Shown: piece after piece, positions 29,351-40,870 of the stretch
Numbering within the stretch: position 1 is the stretch's first letter
How the letters are laid out: every line of letters starts with the position of its first letter
Origin: Emiliania huxleyi CCMP1516
Lineage: Eukaryota
Length of the DNA stretch: 64,000 bases
Reading direction: 5' to 3'
Assembly (NCBI RefSeq): GCF_000372725.1
Contig: NW_005201287.1
Location: forward strand, 589,081 to 653,080
The notes under the pieces: generated by a model
What the model was told of the DNA's origin: nothing
The model's database searches: none
What the model saw: only the letters and a program-made list of their open reading frames with translations
Position numbers and translations under genes: made by a program

Positions 29351-32300
29351 TCACTCGCAGCGGGGGCGCGGCACTGGAGGCTCGACGACAGCCCACCCGC
29401 GCGGCAGCCCAGACTCGGCGTCGGTGCCGAGGAGGGAGGCCCAGAGCGACGCGGCAGAGTACCAGGCGGGCGGGGTGTGCGGCCACACGTTGAGCACGAG
29501 GTAGCGGTCAGACCGGGCGTGGTAGGCGGCGAGCGGCGAGAAGTGGCCTCCGAACGGCCGGTGGCCAAGGACACCCTGGAGGGGAGGGGGAGGGGAGGGC
29601 AGAGGAGGGGAGGGGTGAGGCGGCTTGGGAGATGCAAGGTGTCGCGGACAGGTCGGGATCTCGGCTTCGCACCTGGTGAAAGTTGGCGACGACGAGCCTC
29701 CGCGGCGCCGCGCGCAGCTCGGCTAGCAGCTGCTCGAGCCCCGCGCCACGCTCCGCTTTGAGAGCGGCCCACGCACCGCCGCCGCCCTCGCCGCCACCGC
29801 CACCGCCAACGCCGCCCTCGCCGCCACCGCCACCGCCCTCCCCACCGCCCCGCATCACAGGCGCCGCGTGCCACGTGCCGTGAGCGCCGGCGGAGAGGGG
29901 CGGCGACTCACCCTTCCCCGACTCACCCTTCCCCGACTCACCCTTCCCCGACTCACCCTTCCCCGACTCACCCTTCCCCGACGGCTTCGCGACTGGCGCG
30001 GGCGGGCTGGCTGGAACGACGCCCGCCGGGGCGGCGGCGGCGGCGAGTCCGAGGGAGTGGAGGAGCCGGCCCAGCTCTGGCAGCGTGATGCCGCCGCTGC
30101 GCACCTTTGCAAGCGGGAGGGCGGCGGCGGGAGGAGAGAGGGCTCCGTGCGCGCGCAGGACGACCTCCTCGTCGAGATCGCACCCGCCCTCCCCGCACTC
30201 GCCCTCCCCGCCCTCGCCAGAGGCGGCGGCGGCTTGCACCGCGGCCGCGGCAGCCCGCAGCGAGCTGTGCGCGGCGTGGCTCGCCGCCGCCCGCAGCAGC
30301 ATCGCGACCGAGGCGGCTCCGCACATCGTCGGGCCGGCCTGGCAGCGGAAGTGGGGCCAGAGCAGGTCGAAGGCGGCCCGGTCGGCGGGCGCGCACTCGA
30401 GCAGCAGCCGCCGCCCCTCCTCCGACGAGAGCAGCACTGCGGCCTCGCTCAGCGCCGCCGGCGGCGGCAGCGCGCCAAAAGGAGCCGCCCACGCCGGCGG
30501 AGGGGCGGTGACGGAGAAGGGGCGGCCCTCGCTCGCACAGCTGTACGACCAGGCGTGCAGCCACATCGCGTCCTCCCCCTCCGCCTCTCCTTCGTGGCCG
30601 TCGGAGAAGCGGGCGCGCGACGACCGCGACCGCTCCGAGAAGGCAACGCCGCCCTCGCCGCTACAAGGCCGCGGCCGCTTCCGCGCGCCTCCTTCGCCCG
30701 CCTCCCCGCCCTCCCCGCCCTCCCCGCCCTCCCCGCCGAGGCGGTAGAGGGGGTCGTTTGCGATGGGGTGTCCCGCGTACAGCAGGTGGAGGCGCACCTG
30801 CGGGACATGTCTCGGACATGTCATGGACGTGTCCCGCGTACAGCAGGTGGAGGCGCACCTGGCGAGGTGCAGGTGCAGGCCGAGGTGGAGCCGAGGTGGA
30901 GCCGAGGGGCGGCCGAGGTGCGCGTTCGAGGTGCGGCCGAGAGTGCGGCCCGAGGAGCTGCCGAGCGAGGCGCCTGGTGGGTTCGCCCCGTCAACGGCTC
31001 GCACAGCACCAGCGAGGTGTGGGAGGCGGCGTCGTACTCGACCCCCACCAGCACCGTCTCCGCGGGCTTTCCGCTCGCGTGGAGGCCGCAGGTCGTGCCG
31101 CCGTGCGCGCTCGCCACGCGGATCGGCACCTAGACTCGGGGAGATGTGGGGAGGTGTGGAGAGGTGTGGGGAGGTGTGGGGAGGTGTGGAGAGGTGTGGG
31201 GAGGTGTGGGGAGGTGTGGGGAGGTGTGGGGAGGTGTGGGGAGGTGTGGGGAGGTGTGGAGAGGTGTGGGGAGGTGTGGGGAGGTGTGGGGAGGTGTGGG
31301 GAGGTGTGGGGAGGTGTGGGGAGGTGTGTGGGGAGGTGTGTGGGGAGGTGTGTGGGGAGGTGTGTGGGGAGGTGTGATGGGAGGTGTGGGGAGGTGTGGG
31401 GAGATTGGCACCTAATCTCGCGCCGTCGCAGGCCATGTCGGGTCATCTCGGGCCAGCAGTGCACGCTCGTCCCGCATGTCGGCGCCGCCACAGTCACCGC
31501 CCCCCCGACCGGCACCGAGCCAGCCACGCGAGCGAGGTACTGCTTGCGCATGCCGCCGCCCTCGAGCGCCGCGCCGAGCCTGCTCGCCGCCGCCGCCGTG
31601 CGGGGAAGCAGCAGCACGCCAGACACCTGCGGCACGGGAGCAGAGTCGAGGCCGGGGCGAGGGCCAGGGCGAGGACCGGTCGGAAGGGCATCCCGATGGG
31701 CGCTGCACCTGCCGGTCGAGACGGTGCAGCACGTGCAGCCCGCTCCCTCCCCCTCCCCCTCCTCCTCCTCCTCCGCCTCCTCGCCCGCTCCCTCGCCCTC
31801 CCCCTCCTCCTCCTCCTCCTCGCCCTCCGCCTCCTCCTCCTCCTCCTCCTCCCCCTCCACCGAGGTTGAGGTCGGGTCGCTCGTGCGGCAGGATCTCGAC
31901 CAGCGTGTTGCGGCGGTACCTCCCCGCGTGGTGCACCGGCACGCCTGCAGGCAGACACGTCCAAGTCTGCTCCGGCCAGGCTGCTGCTGCCCGTGCTGCT
32001 CCCCCCCCGCCCCCCCCTCTCTCTCTCGCTCGCTCGCTCTCCGTCCCGCTGGCACGCCTGCGGGCTTGTGCAGGACAAGGAGGTCGTCAGCCTCGAGCAG
32101 CAGCCCGATCGGCGCAGCGGGCACCGACGGCTCCGTCCGCACCACCTCATGCACCAGCCGGTCTCCGTGCCGGAAGACGGTCTCCGCTCCACACGGACCG
32201 CCATTGAGGGTGAGCCGGCCCGCCGCTACCGCCTCCTGAGACGGGCAGCGTGTGCGATCGGCGAGCGAGGCGCGGGAGTTCAGGAATTAGGCTCGAGCCT

Positions 32301-32457
32301 GCAGGTACTCGGCGGAGCAGAGCATCTCGTCGCGCATGACGTCGAGCACCTTCCGGCCGACCCACCGCCCCTTTGTGTTGGAGACAAACTCATGCGTGTA
32401 CGGCACGACGTGCCTGCGGCCATCGCGTATCTCGTACCAGGTGGCGCGCAGAGACAT
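29351..32457 (-). CDS. RluA/RPUSD2-type pseudouridine synthase fused to a C-terminal phytochelatin-synthase-like (papain-fold) domain; about 7 exons
   Basis: PYTHEFVSNTKGRW, LHKPAGVPVH..GRY..NT, HRLDRQVSG, K.YLARV, PLTGRTHQVRLHL..AGHPIANDPLY, WLHA; then SSEEGRRLL, HFRCQ..PTMCG.AS, GGITL.ELG, VANF, GGHFSPLAAY...DRYLVLNV, DAESGLPRG*. Confidence 0.88.
31139..31402. repeat. Intronic 10-bp tandem repeat (GAGGTGTGGG)n
   Basis: Direct observation. Confidence 0.95.
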
Positions 32458-32678
32458 GGGTGGACAGGATAGCTGACTCGAGCCCCACCGAACCCAGAAG
32501 CCGCGAAGGCAGCGTGAAAAAGAATGATTACTGGGTAACGCGCATGAAAGACAAACGCGTTTCCTGTAACAGATGCCACGTGTGCACAAGGATCCGCCTG
32601 CGTTGGCTTTCGATTGGCTTGTGCCCGGGCCGCCACGGCTCCTCGTGCTTGTCGCGCCAGGACGTGGCAGTGCAGGAA

Positions 32679-35600
32679 ATGACCGCCGCGTCGCCCGGGC
32701 CACGGCGGTGGCGCCTCACTCCCAGCAGCACGCGATCGTCGACTGGCACGGTTCAACGGTCCTCGCCTCTCTTGGGACTCTCGCGCGCCATCGTGCAGGA
32801 ATGCACCTCTGGCCCTCTTGAGGAGCCGCGGCGTTCCTCGGTGGTCGAGGTCTTGGGCGCGGAGGGCGGCGGCGCGGAGGGCGGCGGCGCGGAGGGCGGC
32901 GGCGCGGAGGGCGGCGGCAGAGAGGGCGGTGGAGAGCAGGAGTTCATGCCAGTGCAGGCTGCGCCAGTGCCGCCTCGCCGGACCGAGGTGGAAAGCGGCA
33001 GAACCATGCCTGAGCCGCACCTGGAGGCACGGAAGCAGCAGCCAAAAGACCCTTTTGAGCGGCCAAAGGTGAAGGACGAGCATGTGCCTTGGCATAAGGA
33101 GGCGCCAGAATATGCGCCGCGCAGCACCAACTTTCCCCTCGTGAGGATGGACGAGCAAGGAATGGATTGGACTGCGACTCTACGCGAAGCAGGCGGGCTC
33201 GGCGTGATTCTCTCCGGCGAGAAGACGCACCGCCTCAACCCAGGAGGGCGGACCGGCCTCGTCGGTGGCTGGTCCGAACACGCGCATGCGGGCGCCAACC
33301 GGGCAGTCGACCCAATAATCACGCGTTTCCGGCCGGATGCAAAGGAGCCGACGCTGCAGCTTCTCGCCGGCCTGCGGCGCGACTGCAATGCTTGGGCTCT
33401 GCCCGGTGCGATGATACGGACATCTGAGACCGTCGAGACTGCGATGCGACGCGGCTTGGCCGAAAAGGGAGTAGACAGCAAGATTGTCAGTCTATTGCGC
33501 TTTGACCTGCCGGAGGCATCCGACAGCGGATACATCTACATCGACGACTCGCGCAACACCGACGACGCTTGGATCGAGAGCACGGTGTACAAGTTCCACC
33601 TAGAGGACCAGGACACCACTGTCAGCTGCCCGGGGGTGAAGTGGGTCGATATCTCCGGAGCTGGCGGTGTCAACATCTTCAAGCCGCACCGCCTCTGGGT
33701 AAAGGAGGTGGCCGACGAGCTACTCAACGCGCCTATGCTTGAGCGCAAAATGCGAGGCGTCCGTCTCAAGCTCCTCTTCCGGCCCTTGGAGCTCAACCTC
33801 ACCAAGGGGGTACGGCTCGTCCGATGCGCTCCGGAGAGCAGCCCTTCCTTCAACCGCTTGCTCGCTTGCAGCGAGAAGCAGAGTGAGGCGCTCACCATCA
33901 ACGAGAGCGGGGCCATTTCGAGCGTGACGCACGTGGAGCTGCGGCTGGATATCCATAAAGGGCGGCTGCGCCCCGAGGTGGAGGCGCAGATGAACCCAGC
34001 GATCCTGCGCAAGGAGGCGCAGATGAAGTGGGTGCGGTGTCGCTGCGCTCCTTTCGCGCCGATCGCTGTTGGATGGGAGTCGCGCAACCGCTTCTCAATA
34101 CCTCAAGATGCGACGCACCAAGCGTTCGTCTACGGGCCACTAGACGCCGCGGACGCCGCCTTCGCAGGAGAGGTGATGTACCCTGACCCCAAGACTGCGC
34201 ATTTTGAGCAGCTGCTGGTGAGTGGCGGCTTCGTGTACGCCAAATGCGAGGGCCAGCAGGTCGACGTGCTGCGTGTGACGCACGTCGATAACGTCGACGA
34301 GAACGACCTGTACTCGAAGAACCACGTCGTCGAGTTCAAGGGCCCACACCGGATGGAGGAGGGCCCGCTTCGGCACGCACAGAAGCAGGAGCACTGGACA
34401 CCGGTGTCGCTCTCGTTCCTCCTCGCGGCGGGTGCGCACTCCTTCATGTGGCTGAACCCGGGCGAGCACGCGGGCACGCACCCCATCAAGTTTGGCGCTT
34501 TCGCGTACTCCTCACACAAAGCGTCGGCTGGGGGGCCGCGGGCGGCACGCGCCGCCCCCCCGGTCGCCGCAGACGGCAGCGCCAACGCCGTCTACTTTTT
34601 TCTAAGGTCGGAAGACAACTCGTGCGGGGCAGCTGCTGATATGGACCTCAAGACCGCCGGCGTCATGGCGCCCGTCGAGGTGGCCCGAGAGCATTCATCT
34701 AAGAAGAACAACGCCGTGGACGCCAGCGATGCCGCACATAAGGCCGCCGCCCACAACTGGTTTTTGTTTCACGATGCCGTCGCGATGGGCAATGCCTCGC
34801 TCGTTGAGTCGCTCATCAAGGATGACAGGTTGCTTCCTGAGGAGATGGTTGAGTCCCAGCTCACGAGACGCGAGCTCAAGGCTGCGCTTTCTCGCACGGG
34901 GACGAGCTCTGCCCTCCCTCGCTCCTTCTCTCCGGCGGAGCAGTCAAGCAGAGCCTCCTCCCGAAGTGTGGATATCAGCCGCGTGGACGTGCCTGATGGC
35001 AGCAGCTCGCTTACACCACTTATGGTGGCAGCGGAGTACGGCCACGGCGACGTGGTGCGCACGCTGATACGTCGTGGCGCATCTCCCACGGCGCAGGCAA
35101 AGGACGGCGCAACGGCGATGGACCATGCGTTGCGCGTCCCCGCATCCGGCATCCCCGTCGAGCAGTTGCTTTGCAAGCTCGACGCCGCCATCGCCCTGCT
35201 GCCGGCGCTTTTCCGCCACTCTGCTGGCGAGGCACTGTGCTACGTCACCAAGATTGCGGAACGCGCGCACATCGAGCGCGAGCGGCGCGAACGCAGCAGC
35301 CCCGCGGAAGCCGAGAAGCTTCAAGCGACGGCGGACCGCGCGGAGCGCTTGGGTGTCGAGCTTATCAAAAAGCTCTCGGTGCTGCAGCGCACGCTTCTCC
35401 TCGAGCGCGAGAAGCGCAAGGAGAGTCTTTTCCTCGAGGGCGGGACGTCCAAGGAGATCAAGCGGCCCCCTGGCTTCGTGGCTCGGCCCCGCGGCTTCGT
35501 GGCTCGCGCCGTCAACGTGCCGCGCCAGAAGAAGTTGCTGGGTGACCCGACGGTGCAGGCTGCCATCAACTACCGTTGGATGGGCCCACTGATCAACTCC

Positions 35601-37109
35601 GTCGTCAACGGCTACGTCGTCACGCCAAACGGGGACGAGGAGAGGGTGCGCCGGCCGTTCGCGCGAGTTGTCCTCCTTCTGCTCGCTGCCGCCGTCAACT
35701 TACTCTTCCTGCCGCTCGTGGCATTTATCCCTCGGCTGCGGCGGCTGCTGATGTGGACCCTCGATTTTGGTTTTGAGCTCGTCTCGTCGGACCGCACACC
35801 CTACAGCGAGGGCTTCCAACGCAAGTGGAGCCCGTCGGCGCAGCTCTACACCCGCTCCCTCTACCTGCTCGACGCTCCCTTCTTTCAGTTCTTCATCTCG
35901 TCTGTGAGCTGGCTGCTCCTCTCTCTCGTGCTGACGCGCACGGCGACGCCGAGTTTGCGTGGGGCTGTGGCCGACGCATGGGCTCTGCTCTCGTCCGAGG
36001 GGGCTGATGGCATCGCCCCTGCGTTGGCTACTGTGGTGGAGGAGGTGGGGAGCTTGGCGCTGAACGCATTGCTGCTCTCAGGCTTGCTGCTCTGGCTGCT
36101 GGCACACTTCATCGACGAAATCGAGACCTTTTCTTGGAGCGACCCGATCAAGAAGGGCGAGCTCCTCGGGATCAGCCTCGCCCTGTCCTCCAAGCTGGCG
36201 CCCATGTTCAACAGGCACATGCTCGCCTTTGGCCTACTCCTCATGTGGCTCTCGTGGTTCATGCGCGTCTTCTCGCTGGGCGGACTGGGCACTTTGACCG
36301 TGATGCTCGAAAAGATGCTCTTCGACACGGTCAAGTTCCTAGTCTTTATGGTTGGTTGCGCCGTCGCCTTTGCCGCCGCACTGCACCAGCTCTTTCTCGA
36401 GGCACACGTCCTCGACGTTGAGGATTGCGACAAGTTCAGTGAATTTGGTGAGGGGTTGCTGGTGTCGCTGAGGCGGCTGCTGCTGGTTGCCATAGATCCG
36501 GCAGAGAGTATCGACTGCGCAGGCACGATTGCAGAGGCGCTGCAGGACTTTCACTTTACGGCGCCATTCATCATGAGCGTGTACGTCATCCTGTCGGTGG
36601 TGCTGCTGCTCAATATGCTTATCGCGATCATGGCGAAGACGTTCGATACCGTGTGGGACGACGCCGAGACGGAGAATCGCTACCTCAGAGCGCAACTCGC
36701 GGTGCAGTATTTTGGCGATGCGCCGCCACCGCCCTTCAACCTCCTGCGGCTCCCGGCCCGCGTGCCGGAGCTGCTGGAGAGGTGCTGGGCCAAGGTAAGC
36801 CACGCGTGTGGGCTGGCCGCCACCTGCTGTTACGGCGCTGGGAAGTGGCTCGTGTGGCTCGCCTGCCTACCTTGCCTCGCGGTGTGGGCCGTCCGACGGG
36901 CGTGGGCCCTCCCCCGGCAAGACAAGTCTTCGCAAGAGGGCCTGTTTTTGAGCGAGGGGCTGTCGACCGACGGCGACATGGACGACCTCGATCCGTCGAA
37001 CGTGCGCTATGTCGACGGGCTAGGCCAGCTGTGGTCGGAGCGGAACACCGTCGAGGAGCTGATGAAGCTCGAGGCGGAGGGTAGATCGAAAGAGGAGCGA
37101 AAGGAGTGA
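32679..37109 (+). CDS. Intronless TRP-family cation channel with N-terminal NUDT9-like domain, unknown domain and ankyrin repeats (start taken as first plausible ATG; frame open from 32373)
   Basis: NUDT9-like: ERPKV....VPW, LNPGGRTGL, GANRAVDPIITR, RRDC..WALPG, GYIYIDDSRNTDDAWIES; ANK: TPLMVAAEYGHGDVVRTLIRRGA; channel: APFFQF, LGTLTVMLEKMLFD..KF, LLLNMLIAIMAKTF...PPPFNLL. Confidence 0.92.
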   Translation: MTAASPGPRRWRLTPSSTRSSTGTVQRSSPLLGLSRAIVQECTSGPLEEPRRSSVVEVLGAEGGGAEGGGAEGGGAEGGGREGGGEQEFMPVQAAPVPPRRTEVESGRTMPEPHLEARKQQPKDPFERPKVKDEHVPWHKEAPEYAPRSTNFPLVRMDEQGMDWTATLREAGGLGVILSGEKTHRLNPGGRTGLVGGWSEHAHAGANRAVDPIITRFRPDAKEPTLQLLAGLRRDCNAWALPGAMIRTSETVETAMRRGLAEKGVDSKIVSLLRFDLPEASDSGYIYIDDSRNTDDAWIESTVYKFHLEDQDTTVSCPGVKWVDISGAGGVNIFKPHRLWVKEVADELLNAPMLERKMRGVRLKLLFRPLELNLTKGVRLVRCAPESSPSFNRLLACSEKQSEALTINESGAISSVTHVELRLDIHKGRLRPEVEAQMNPAILRKEAQMKWVRCRCAPFAPIAVGWESRNRFSIPQDATHQAFVYGPLDAADAAFAGEVMYPDPKTAHFEQLLVSGGFVYAKCEGQQVDVLRVTHVDNVDENDLYSKNHVVEFKGPHRMEEGPLRHAQKQEHWTPVSLSFLLAAGAHSFMWLNPGEHAGTHPIKFGAFAYSSHKASAGGPRAARAAPPVAADGSANAVYFFLRSEDNSCGAAADMDLKTAGVMAPVEVAREHSSKKNNAVDASDAAHKAAAHNWFLFHDAVAMGNASLVESLIKDDRLLPEEMVESQLTRRELKAALSRTGTSSALPRSFSPAEQSSRASSRSVDISRVDVPDGSSSLTPLMVAAEYGHGDVVRTLIRRGASPTAQAKDGATAMDHALRVPASGIPVEQLLCKLDAAIALLPALFRHSAGEALCYVTKIAERAHIERERRERSSPAEAEKLQATADRAERLGVELIKKLSVLQRTLLLEREKRKESLFLEGGTSKEIKRPPGFVARPRGFVARAVNVPRQKKLLGDPTVQAAINYRWMGPLINSVVNGYVVTPNGDEERVRRPFARVVLLLLAAAVNLLFLPLVAFIPRLRRLLMWTLDFGFELVSSDRTPYSEGFQRKWSPSAQLYTRSLYLLDAPFFQFFISSVSWLLLSLVLTRTATPSLRGAVADAWALLSSEGADGIAPALATVVEEVGSLALNALLLSGLLLWLLAHFIDEIETFSWSDPIKKGELLGISLALSSKLAPMFNRHMLAFGLLLMWLSWFMRVFSLGGLGTLTVMLEKMLFDTVKFLVFMVGCAVAFAAALHQLFLEAHVLDVEDCDKFSEFGEGLLVSLRRLLLVAIDPAESIDCAGTIAEALQDFHFTAPFIMSVYVILSVVLLLNMLIAIMAKTFDTVWDDAETENRYLRAQLAVQYFGDAPPPPFNLLRLPARVPELLERCWAKVSHACGLAATCCYGAGKWLVWLACLPCLAVWAVRRAWALPRQDKSSQEGLFLSEGLSTDGDMDDLDPSNVRYVDGLGQLWSERNTVEELMKLEAEGRSKEERKE

Positions 37110-37730
37110 AGCTCGAGGCGGCGATCAAAGAGGAGCAAATTCTGAGGAGGAGCGGCGGCGGGGGTGGCGGGGAGGCAACAGGCAACGGCACTCCAATGGA
37201 CCGTTGCGCCGTCTGTCCTGTAGTGCGGGCGGCGGCGTGGCCTACATTCCATGCATGATTTCAGTCTCTGCCATGGAAGAAGAAACCGCGCGTTGGCAAC
37301 AGGGTTCCGGCCTAGCCGGATAGGGGTCTGTTGCCCCTGCACTTAGCCACTGACACTCGCGCCAAAACGATCCTAACCTACCTATCCCAAGTCCGCGCAG
37401 CGCAGCGAAAAATGTGAAAAATGGAGAAAACAGGGGTACCTATATATATAGCTAATCCCGCGCCCTTTTGGGCCAAACACAAGATCTGCACCGGGTACCC
37501 ATCTCACACAGGTCCGCGCTACATTCTGGTAGCACTGACAGGCACGTACAGGGGTCCACATTTACACGGGGGACCCCTGGACTGTGTCACTGCTCCCACA
37601 CGTTCAGCGGGAGCCTGAACCCTTTTGCGCCAAACAACGCGACGCGTACCTTATCTCTCTGCCGGAGCCTGAACCCAGCTCGCGCGCCGAGAGCGTCGGC
37701 CACACGCAGAAGCTCACGGCTCGCTGACGC

Positions 37731-39759
37731 ATGGGCGGCCGGGTCGTTTGCTGCGTGCTCATCTTTTGCGCTCCCGCGCTTCCTCTCTCGCTGCACCGAC
37801 AGCCGTCGGGGGTAAAACAGCTGCACGCCCGTGCTGCCTCGCCACTCCGGAGGGCTGCGCTGGTCGTCGCGTCTTCGTCGCTCTCCCTGAGGCGGTTCGA
37901 GAGCGACGAGGGCGGCGGCGGCGGGTCCGGTGTCGACGCGTGGATTCCCACCTCGCTCGTCACCACTGCCGCGAGAGACCCGTACAAGGTCGCTCTGCGC
38001 GTGCTGCCGATGCTCCTAGTGCACGTGGCGTGGGCGAGCCTCATCGTCGCCGTCCGGCACTGCGTCCGCTTCAGTAAGCCGTGGGCGGTCTCGCCGCTGC
38101 TGCACACGCTGCTTGGCGGCGTCCTCGGGCTGCTGCTAGCCTTCCGGACCAACCAGGCGTGGAATCGGTACTGGAGCGCGGCACAGGCGTGGTCAGACGT
38201 GCACCGCGGCTGCCACAGCCTGGCGAGGCTCGCGTCTCAGCTGTCGGTGGCGCTCGACCCGATCGTGTACGCCTCGATGATGAGGCGATTCCGAGGGGCG
38301 GGGCCGACAGAGAGGAGGGAGACGGACGAAGAGGGTAGCATCCGTCGGAGAGAGCAGATAGGAGAGCAGACAAGAGCCTCGACCACCTCTCCGCACCTCG
38401 GCAGGCAAGAGCCTTGCCCTCCCCGCCTCAGGCACCTCGTCGCGCTGCCCGTCGCCCTCAAGCAGCGCGTGCGGCGCGCGCCCAACCCTCGTGAGTACTT
38501 CGAGGCGCCGAGATAGGGGAGATACGGGGAGATACGGGGAGATACGGGGAGATGTGGAGCACGGGCCCTCGCAAGTACTTCGAGGCGCGACCCTCTCCCT
38601 TTACAGCCGAGATCGCGCGAGGTCGCAGCCGAGAGCGCGATCTCTCGTAGGCTTGGCCGGTGCTCTCGCCGGCCGAGGCTGACGCCGTCGCACGCTCGCC
38701 CGTGCCGCACCTGCTCCTGCTCACCTCCATCTCGCTGCTGCTCCGCCCGCTGCGCGCGCGCGACGACGGCTCCGGCAAGGACATCGCGCTCTGGGGGCAG
38801 TGCGAGATGAGGCTCGCCGAGCCGCAGGCGGAGCAATGGAAAGAGCCCATCATTCATCAGCCATCACGTTGTTCTTTAGGCTCGCAGAGCTGCAGTCGGC
38901 GGCTGCGACCCTCGACCTCGTCGCGCGGCTGCCTCCGCCCGCTTCGTACTGCACCCACACGGCGAGATACAGCCGAGATACAGCCGAGATACGAGAGAGC
39001 CGAGGTATTCACTGCCTCCCGCCCGCTCCTCCCTCCCCCTCCTCCCTCCTCCTCCTCTGGCTCTCTGGCTCTGGCTCGCCGCCCGCGTTAGCAGCGTCGC
39101 TCCACGCGCCCCGCGGTGAGCAGGCGCGCTTCCTCCTCCTCTGGCTCGCCACGCTGCCCCTCGTCCTCGTCGACCTCTTCTCCCCCCTCGTCATCCCGCC
39201 AATCATCTTCGGAGTCGGGTGGGCACTCTACTCGACCGAGGCGCACCTCGGAGGTCTCTCGGCTACTCGGCTACATCTCGGCTATATCTCGGCTGCACCT
39301 CGGCTACATCTCGGCTACATCTCGGCTGCATCTCGGCTGCATCTCGGCTACATCTCGGCTACATCTCGGCTGCATCTCGGCTATATCTCGGCTACATCTC
39401 GGCTACATCTCGGCTACATCTCGGCTATATCTCGGCAGAGATGTCTCTCGGCTGTGTATCGGGCGGGCCATCTACTCGACCGAAGCGCGGCGGGCGGCGT
39501 GTGCGGGGCGGCGGAGACAGACAGACGCGCAGACGCAGCTGCGCGGAGCCGCCGCAGAGAGATGGCGAGAGGGAGGCGCACACAGAGACTGCAGGGGCGA
39601 GCGTCGTCTCGCTCACGCCCGCCGCCCCCTCCCCCGCCGCAGGAGCTCGCCAAGCTGCTCGACGAGCCGTTCGGCCGCGCATCAGACACGCAGACGGTGC
39701 GCCGCCGCCGGCTCCAGCTGCGGCTCTGGCGACGGCGGCTCGTCTCTACTGTCCGGGGG

Positions 39760-40479: not shown

Positions 40480-40870
40480 CACAAATCCCTCCGCACAGAG
40501 GAGAGAGGTTTCCCATTCCGTGTGGTCAACGGGCGTTTCGACCACACACCACCGGCCAAGGCTACGTCAAGTCACAGCGTGGCCACTACCATGACGGGAT
40601 CTTCACCAAACGAAACAAGTTCAATCTGCTTCTCCACGAGACATTCGGCGGCGGCTTCTCGCCGCCTGCAGTTGCAAAGATCAACCGCCTTGCGCGCAAG
40701 GCTCAACGCTCAGGGCGTTGACCGCACCGCGTACCCTCCCCACTCCCGCCTCTCGTTTGTGTCACACCACGCGGAACGCATCTCCATCGCTTCGGTGAAG
40801 GGGGTGAACCGCGCCATCCTCGATTGCCGTGCAAAGCTCGCTTCCGACCTCTCTCACGCCGCGCGTAGGG
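40480..40870 (+). mobile_element. Degenerate 3' fragment of an RLE-type non-LTR retrotransposon ORF
   Basis: GHYHD...LLLHETFGGGFSPPAV...LARK then, in another frame, DRTAY...SFVSHHAERISIASVKG..AI; resembles the C-terminal restriction-like endonuclease region. Confidence 0.5.

What the first reader, a model, noticed from the sequence alone, without database searches (positions are those of the whole stretch)
32679..37109. TRP channel with an N-terminal NUDT9-like domain plus ankyrins: candidate independently evolved ADP-ribose-sensing channel
Seen: one uninterrupted ORF contains, in order, NUDT9-like motifs (~33050-33720), an unknown domain, ankyrin repeats (~34765-35130) and a TRP pore region with LLLNMLIAIM and PPPFN (~35870-36745). 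No splicing is needed, so the fusion is not a gene-model artefact. Known: TRPM2 carries its NUDT9-homology domain at the C-terminus and has no ankyrins, while ankyrin-bearing TRPs (TRPA/C/N/V) have no Nudix domain. Inference: this inverted architecture could be a convergent ADPR-gated or ADPR-modulated Ca2+ channel linking NAD+/oxidative or infection signals to ion flux in an alga. I do not know of a description of it.
Basis: partly seen in the sequence, partly recalled or inferred. Interest (0 to 1): 0.9.

Follow-up and report, generated by a model that had tools for sequence, protein, structure and literature searches.

The report
Algal TRP channel with dead Nudix
A coccolithophore (Emiliania huxleyi) ion-channel gene carries, at its front end, an ADP-ribose-cleaving enzyme domain that has lost its catalytic residues but kept its binding residues, so it likely acts as a nucleotide sensor and would be an independent parallel to the human oxidative-stress channel TRPM2.

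Summary
One intron-free ORF (32679-37109, 1476 aa; EMIHUDRAFT_201068) encodes, in order, a NUDT9-like domain, a Pfam-dark domain 'X', 2-3 ankyrin repeats and a group-1 TRP pore closest to TRPC4/5 and crTRP1. It has no SLOG/MHR domain. One probable-RNA contig spans 32897-37430 unspliced.

Three additions. (1) The NUDT9-like domain looks like a pseudo-enzyme. In 6 of 6 family members the Mg-binding glutamates (REFGEE to RGLAEK-type) and the catalytic-base loop are gone, whereas 77 of 80 bacterial homologue domains keep all three glutamates. The ribose/phosphate-anchoring Asp, Arg and His are mostly kept, and dN/dS is about 0.3. (2) It is a small paralogue family, with four genes showing the full architecture, so far seen only in E. 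huxleyi-type sequence. (3) Domain X is an unnamed, mobile protist domain with no PDB match, also fused to K2P channels, other TRPs, nicotinamidase-like, ART, TIR, kinase and RING proteins.

ADP-ribose binding, gating and Ca2+ permeability are untested, and the donor of the NUDT9 domain is unresolved. No description was found in 10 literature searches, but one key survey could not be read.

The parts
32679..37109 (+). Intron-free ORF, 1476 aa from the first ATG (alternative start 32946); EMIHUDRAFT_201068
32679..33056 (+). Low-complexity N-terminal stretch with a GAEGGG repeat; not conserved in paralogues; may be partly 5' UTR
33057..33713 (+). NUDT9-like domain (cap and core), predicted catalytically dead
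33450..33467 (+). Degenerate Nudix box RGLAEK (canonical REFGEE)
33894..34616 (+). Domain X: unnamed mobile alpha/beta domain with a core of about 180-200 aa; no Pfam, NCBIfam or PDB match
34734..35378 (+). 2-3 ankyrin repeats (one interrupted by a disordered insert) followed by a helical linker
35652..36740 (+). Pre-S1 hydrophobic segment, S1-S6 pore region, TRP helix and PPPPFN motif; filter region VAIDP
36984..37061 (+). C-terminal motif conserved in the four full-length paralogues; function unknown
37110..37439 (+). Probable 3' UTR; contigs of 4 of 4 runs end at 37430-37439

Best explanation
The gene encodes a TRP-family cation-channel subunit whose N-terminal NUDT9-like domain has lost its catalytic residues and likely serves as a non-catalytic binding site for ADP-ribose or a close adenine nucleotide, which would regulate pore opening through domain X and the ankyrin/linker helices. 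Shown: the domain order, a single open frame, transcript-like coverage, the residue pattern, and purifying selection on every domain. Inferred from known enzymology: no hydrolysis, since the equivalents of srTRPM2 E1386, E1390 and D1460 are all absent. Inferred: ligand binding, since the equivalents of D1330, R1360, D1426 and R1428 and of NUDT9 H324 are kept. Untested: tetramer formation, ion selectivity, gating, cellular location and the physiological ligand.
For: Catalytic positions in 6 family members versus 80 bacterial NUDT9-like domains: first Nudix Glu is Gly in 6/6 versus Glu in 77/80; last Glu is Lys/Gln in 6/6 versus Glu in 77/80; PGG becomes PGA in 6/6 versus Gly in 78/80; the catalytic-base loop has no acidic residue in 6/6 versus Asp/Glu in 77/80. 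Binding positions: D172, the DD-x-R aspartate and R273 are kept in 6/6; H324 is kept in 6/6 (for L003 read from the next exon, P0088); R204 is kept in 4/6; position 321 is aromatic in 6/6. Residue roles come from PMC11479946 sections 8 and 11, PMC5473349 passages and PMC6461439 passages (RILGEE and REFGKK mutants of NUDT9 are inactive). dN/dS against three paralogues is 0.29-0.33 for the NUDT9 domain and 0.23-0.37 for the pore. Precedent: the same enzyme-to-sensor change occurred in vertebrate TRPM2, and catalytic loss in TRPS; Nudix-domain ADPR sensors of the NrtR type are known.
Against: There are no binding or current data. The adenine-stacking pair (srTRPM2 W1264/F1372) has plausible equivalents in only 3 of 6 members, and the Trp aligns one column off. 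R204 is His in 2 of 6. The retained Asp/Arg/His may be kept for folding. In every studied TRPM2 the SLOG/MHR1-2 site is needed for activation, and this protein lacks it. The filter region (AIDP/SLDP) and the S2-S3 calcium site differ from animal TRPs (my reading against recalled motifs). The AlphaFold model of the membrane part is poor (pLDDT 55.5, pTM 0.36), so no coupling path is shown.
Confidence: 0.5

Rival explanations
1. The NUDT9-like domain is a structural or protein-interaction module. The channel is gated by something else (membrane lipid, mechanics, temperature, or a ligand of domain X), and ADP-ribose is irrelevant.
For: X-ankyrin-TRP proteins without a NUDT9 domain in the available sequence exist (P0025, P0030/P0099, P0052). 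Domain X is also fused to K2P channels (4 of 37 scanned hits). Adenine-site residues vary among paralogues.
Against: Pocket-lining polar residues are kept in most or all paralogues at 55-60% overall identity, while catalytic residues were all lost on the family stem.
Confidence: 0.3
2. The protein is a slow chanzyme: the domain still cleaves ADP-ribose or another NDP-X and shapes a local nucleotide signal beside the pore.
For: The middle Glu (E262) survives in 5 of 6 members, and substrate-anchoring residues are kept. Invertebrate TRPM2 proteins are chanzymes.
Against: Both Mg-binding glutamates and the catalytic-base loop are missing in 6 of 6; loss of either set inactivates NUDT9.
Confidence: 0.1
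3. The protein does not conduct on its own; it is a regulatory or heteromeric subunit that assembles with its paralogues.
For: The filter sequence is unusual, the S2-S3 region is divergent, and there are at least four paralogues.
Against: S4, the S4-S5 linker, S5, S6 and the TRP helix are intact and under purifying selection (dN/dS 0.23-0.37).
Confidence: 0.1

Closest known systems
TRPM2 / TRPS (SLOG-MHR-TRP-NUDT9H)
   Same: A NUDT9-homology domain and a group-1 TRP pore in one chain. Vertebrate TRPM2 and TRPS also lost the catalytic Nudix residues.
   Different: Here the domain is N-terminal, there is no SLOG/MHR1-2 ADPR site, ankyrins and domain X are present, and the pore scores higher to TRPC5 (49.8 bits) than to nvTRPM2 (32 bits).
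TRPC4/5 and Chlamydomonas crTRP1 (PDB 6pw4)
   Same: A short ankyrin array, helical linker, pre-S1 segment, 6TM region, TRP helix and PPPFN; these are the best sequence matches, and TRPC chains fill the listed Foldseek rows.
   Different: They have no NUDT9 domain or domain X; the TRP box here reads ENRYLR. Orthology was not tested.
NUDT9 ADP-ribose pyrophosphatase and bacterial NUDT9-like proteins
   Same: Cap and core motifs NPxGRTG, DP, W-x-x-PG and DD-x-RNTD-x-AW.
   Different: The Nudix box is RGLAEK, the catalytic-base loop is deleted, and the domain is fused to a channel.
P0055-type SLOG-(NUDT9)x2-TRPM-like protein (ENA, unnamed, truncated)
   Same: NUDT9-like domains, also degenerate, placed before the membrane region.
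   Different: It has SLOG and the TRPM2-like PF25508 domain, no domain X, and no detectable similarity to P0001 outside NUDT9. Its relationship in the tree is unresolved.
NrtR-type Nudix ADPR sensors
   Same: A Nudix domain used as an ADPR sensor on another effector (PMC9503650 passage).
   Different: Those are bacterial transcription factors; their relation to the NUDT9 subfamily was not tested here.

Membership tests
Group-1 TRP channel | Six-TM Ion_trans region with TRP-type S4-S5 linker and S6 | tested here: met
   Pfam Ion_trans E 5.9e-7; TRPC5 E 1.7e-12; hydropathy finds pre-S1, S1, S2, S4, S5 and S6, with S3 under the threshold; paralogue P0003 matches TIGR00870 trp at E 1.3e-20
Group-1 TRP channel | TRP helix and proline-rich box after S6 | tested here: met
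   aa 1326-1354, PPPPFN at 36723, conserved in paralogues
Group-1 TRP channel | Tetrameric cation conductance | not testable with these tools
   needs electrophysiology
TRPM2/TRPS | N-terminal SLOG/MHR1-2 domain | tested here: not met
   No LSDAT hit at E<=1, while the same library finds it in P0055 at E 2.8e-23; the N-terminus is accounted for by NUDT9 and X
TRPM2/TRPS | NUDT9-H domain at the C-terminus | tested here: not met
   The domain lies at aa 127-345; only 122 aa follow the PPPPFN box
TRPM2/TRPS | Contains a NUDT9-homology domain | tested here: met
TRPM2/TRPS | ADPR plus Ca2+ co-activation | not testable with these tools
   needs patch clamp
TRPC | Short ankyrin array plus linker helices before the pore | tested here: met
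   (low-confidence model, TM-scores about 0.2)
TRPC | Canonical TRP box (EWKFAR, recalled motif) | tested here: not met
   The position reads ENRYLR, ENRYLK, EDRYLR or ENSFVK in the four paralogues
TRPC | Phylogenetic placement within TRPC | not tested
   No reference TRP sequences were held for a tree
Active NUDT9 ADPRase | Nudix box REUXEE with Mg-binding first and last Glu | tested here: not met
   RGLAEK-type box in 6 of 6; consensus
Active NUDT9 ADPRase | Catalytic-base Asp in the GDDA loop (srTRPM2 D1460) | tested here: not met
   Loop deleted in 6 of 6
Active NUDT9 ADPRase | ADPR-anchoring Asp/Arg/His | tested here: met
   D211, R233, D290, R292 and H337 of P0001
TRPW | N-terminal WD40 propeller | tested here: not met
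   No WD40 hit at E<=1; definition from bioRxiv passages

The most novel reading that the evidence does not exclude
Coccolithophores built an ADP-ribose-gated calcium channel from scratch: they grafted a NUDT9 enzyme onto the front of an ankyrin TRP channel and disabled its catalysis once, before a paralogue expansion. This repeats the vertebrate TRPM2 transition without the SLOG site. Domain X, which has no structural match in the PDB and recurs on ion channels and NAD-related enzymes across protists, is a second, undescribed nucleotide-sensing fold, making these dual-input channels for NAD+ breakdown signals.
Probability: 0.3. Interest if true: 0.85.

Novelty: new variant of a known kind. 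Interest (0 to 1): 0.62.

Why it matters
If ligand gating holds, this is a natural experiment on a debated point in TRPM2 biology: whether a NUDT9-type domain can gate a channel by itself, without the MHR1/2 site. It would also be a further independent enzyme-to-sensor conversion of the same domain, and a candidate link between NAD+ breakdown and ion signalling in a globally important bloom alga. Domain X is of separate value: an unnamed, confidently folded module found in cryptophyte, centrohelid, chlorarachniophyte and haptophyte proteins that no library searched here describes. If the domain is only structural, the finding is still an undescribed TRP architecture and a correction to public gene models.

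Tried and rejected
Gene-model or assembly artefact: rejected. There is one open frame, one contig over 32897-37430, and the same order in four paralogues. TRPM2 orthologue: rejected.

The public model's 34-aa intron inside domain X is not supported: contigs of 3 of 4 runs run through it, and run X1 has a break at 34498-34546 with no joint listed. No listed holder run is on record as RNA; that blank was not used as evidence.

A tree of 90 NUDT9-like domains (quick search only; I left out 3 fragments) could not place the donor. The backbone is unresolved, P0055's domains are long branches, and no TRPM2 or protist free NUDT9 was in it. A single origin of X-TRP fusions is not supported by the X tree of 42 rows: TRP-linked copies fall in three places on a weak backbone.

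Fold of X: no PDB sequence match at E<=10, Foldseek best E 0.18, VIA-align best Z 3.2 with 0 of 48,161 chains at Z>=5. This does not prove a new fold. The ESM Atlas gave no usable hit twice, which is uninformative. The AlphaFold model of the membrane part was too poor to use. The viral contig scan found 45 pattern matches and none confirmed. The search for ADPR-producing enzymes in Emiliania returned nothing relevant among the 12 papers listed. Earlier findings of this scan: none. No whole genome was held, so the paralogue count is a minimum. Read support for splicing of paralogues L002 and L003 was not obtained; their fusion rests on predicted introns. No complex prediction was run, since the ligand cannot be scored.
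Full report
OBSERVATION. The + strand frame is open from 32340 to 37109; the first ATG (32679) gives a 1476-aa protein, P0001. Against solved structures, aa 127-345 match human NUDT9 (E 1.8e-16) and the NUDT9-H domains of sea-anemone, zebrafish, choanoflagellate and human TRPM2 (E 4e-13 to 2e-8). Pfam gives ankyrin at aa 777-817, Ion_trans at 1187-1325 and a sub-threshold NUDIX hit. The gene is EMIHUDRAFT_201068 of Emiliania huxleyi CCMP1516, named only 'hypothetical' or 'Ion transport domain'.

EXPRESSION. Four runs from four studies were laid on 31000-39000. Their RNA status is the tool's guess, but they skip introns in both neighbouring genes, depth falls between genes, and all four end at 37430-37439. 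One contig spans 32897-37430, and no joint is listed within the ORF. Of 28 listed in-ORF substitution rows I classed 24 (the 4 rows in the codon at 35805-35807 were left out; 25 further rows were not shown by the tool). Of these, 19 are synonymous, against 25% synonymous sites. The listed in-ORF indels keep the frame. The public model starts at 32946 and removes 34 aa of domain X as an intron, which contigs of 3 of 4 runs retain.

FAMILY. Four genes show the full order NUDT9-X-Ank-TRP: this one; EMIHUDRAFT_199214 (P0004/P0060); L002 (48% identity; its NUDT9 part clusters with CCMP1516 protein XP_005777145, annotated as a stand-alone 'ADP-ribose pyrophosphatase'); and L003. L002 and L003 need predicted introns: one in-frame GT-AG of 114 nt in L002, and one GT-AG plus two GC-AG in L003; these have no read support here. 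Two more NUDT9 fragments (P0107, P0108) belong to the clade. All six NUDT9 domains form one clade (SH-aLRT 98, quick tree of 90 rows). L003 shares a 219-nt stretch at 95% with the window, so every member found is probably E. huxleyi or a very close relative. The protein searches need shared short words (one search scored only the 7,988 candidates sharing most words), so absence from other haptophytes is not established. dN/dS against three paralogues is 0.29-0.33 for NUDT9, 0.39-0.49 for X, 0.28-0.38 for ankyrin and linker, and 0.23-0.37 for the pore (simple counting method on tblastn alignments).

THE NUDT9 DOMAIN LOOKS LIKE A PSEUDO-ENZYME. PMC6461439 (passages) gives the box as REUXEE and reports that RILGEE and REFGKK mutants of NUDT9 are inactive. 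PMC11479946 (passages and sections 8 and 11) assigns E1386 and E1390 to Mg binding, D1460 as catalytic base, D1330/D1426/R1428/R1360 to ribose and phosphate, and W1264/F1372 to adenine. PMC5473349 (passages) lists NUDT9 D172, R204, R273, Y321 and H324. I mapped these by hand and by alignment column. In 6 of 6 family members the first Glu is Gly, the last is Lys or Gln, PGG is PGA, and the GDDA loop is deleted. Of 80 domains from 79 of the 80 bacterial loci (found with patterns outside the box; one locus gave no domain and one empty row was dropped), 77 keep all three glutamates. The ribose and phosphate anchors are kept: D211, D290, R292 and H337 of P0001 in 6 of 6, and R233 in 4 of 6. The adenine pair is plausibly kept in 3 of 6, including P0001. 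Loss of catalysis on the stem, with retention of the pocket under purifying selection, is the main argument for a sensor. It is an inference, not a measurement.

DOMAIN X. A full-library search with aa 346-654 gave 40 representatives at E<=0.001. They align over a core with a GGF-x-Y motif and a W-x-x-PGE...GAF motif. Pfam on 37 of them found partners, but never the domain itself: zeta-like P-loop kinase (4), K2P channel (4), isochorismatase/nicotinamidase-like (2), RING (2), ankyrin (2), ART (1, with two X copies), TIR (1) and endo/exo/phosphatase (1); 20 had no family. P0020 has three copies, and P0052 is X-Ank-TRP by alignment. Named carriers among 30 proteins looked up include Rhodomonas salina, Pterocystis and Bigelowiella natans. 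AlphaFold gives a confident alpha/beta model (pLDDT 79.8, pTM 0.79) with no match in the PDB. Only 4 of the 37 partners are NAD-related by family, so a nucleotide ligand for X is a guess.

CHANNEL BODY. The linker-to-TRP region matches TRPC5 (49.8 bits), TRPC4 (48.7), crTRP1 (44.4), TRP-gamma, TRPV3 and TRPC6 ahead of nvTRPM2 (32). Foldseek on a low-confidence model also lists TRPC chains over about 700 columns. There is no SLOG or WD40 domain. So it is a group-1 ankyrin TRP and not a TRPM; it is not filed as TRPC because the TRP box differs and no tree was made. Calcium selectivity cannot be read from the sequence.

MECHANISM. Most likely (0.5), cytosolic ADP-ribose or a close nucleotide binds the dead NUDT9 pocket, and the change passes through X and the ankyrin/linker helices to the gate. 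Rivals are a structural domain with another gating input (0.3), a slow chanzyme (0.1) and a non-conducting subunit (0.1). The strongest caution is that activation of studied TRPM2 channels needs the MHR1/2 site, which is absent here.

NOVELTY. Ten literature searches listed no paper describing an N-terminal NUDT9 on an ankyrin TRP; (TRP channel + NUDIX + ankyrin + Emiliania) gave 0 papers. Passages of PMC13143021, PMC7306681, two 2026 bioRxiv papers on choanoflagellate TRPs, PMC5389931 and PMC11085791 mention Nudix on TRPs, where at all, only with SLOG-bearing TRPM, TRPS or one TRPW-clade protein. I read passages, not whole texts, and opened no supplements. Burroughs et al. 2015, which surveys SLOG and Nudix fusions, is not held, and it or its supplement may list this architecture. 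Independent assembly of the fusion is well supported by domain order and channel type, but the donor of the NUDT9 domain is unresolved, and P0055 shows another N-terminal placement in a TRPM-like protein.

VERDICT. Real, expressed and conserved; a new variant of the Nudix-linked TRP theme, with a testable pseudo-enzyme sensor and an unnamed domain. Its breadth so far is one species group and its function is untested. Interest 0.62.

Noticed in passing
window 33894-34616; P0020-P0054: Domain X is an unnamed mobile protist domain with a confident model and no PDB, Pfam or NCBIfam match, repeatedly fused to K2P and TRP channels, kinases, nicotinamidase-like, ART, TIR and RING proteins. It merits its own study.
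   Followed up: partly
P0055 (ENA, 1716 aa): SLOG followed by two degenerate NUDT9-like domains and then a TRPM2-like region: NUDT9 placed before the membrane part of a TRPM-like protein. The organism is unknown and the C-terminus looks truncated.
   Followed up: partly
L002:3300-4450; XP_005777145 (P0123): The E. huxleyi protein annotated as a stand-alone ADP-ribose pyrophosphatase is probably the first exon of a paralogous channel gene, and it lacks the catalytic residues.
   Followed up: partly
window ~34512-34613: The public model EMIHUDRAFT_201068 removes 34 aa as an intron that contigs of 3 of 4 runs retain. The paralogue model EMIHUDRAFT_199214 lacks about 140 aa, including S1-S2, that are present in P0060.
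   Followed up: yes
window ~29500-32456 (-): An intron-rich RNA pseudouridine synthase gene lies head to head with the channel gene, about 220 nt from its first ATG; a shared promoter is possible.
   Followed up: no
window 37728-~40130 (+): A Bestrophin_2 family gene (E 1.7e-14), a likely anion channel, lies directly downstream; no evidence of functional linkage.
   Followed up: no
L004-L083: NUDT9-like proteins with intact Nudix boxes occur in many bacterial phyla (Patescibacteria, Chlamydiota, Planctomycetota, Bacteroidota, Endozoicomonas, Nocardia); L034 has two in tandem, and L010, L063 and L074 are degenerate.
   Followed up: no
window 40581-40796; L003:1-218: A 219-nt stretch shared at 95% identity, probably a dispersed repeat.
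   Followed up: no
window 36837-36893 and 36984-37061: An extra hydrophobic segment after the TRP box and a conserved C-terminal motif are shared by the paralogues; their role is unknown.
   Followed up: no
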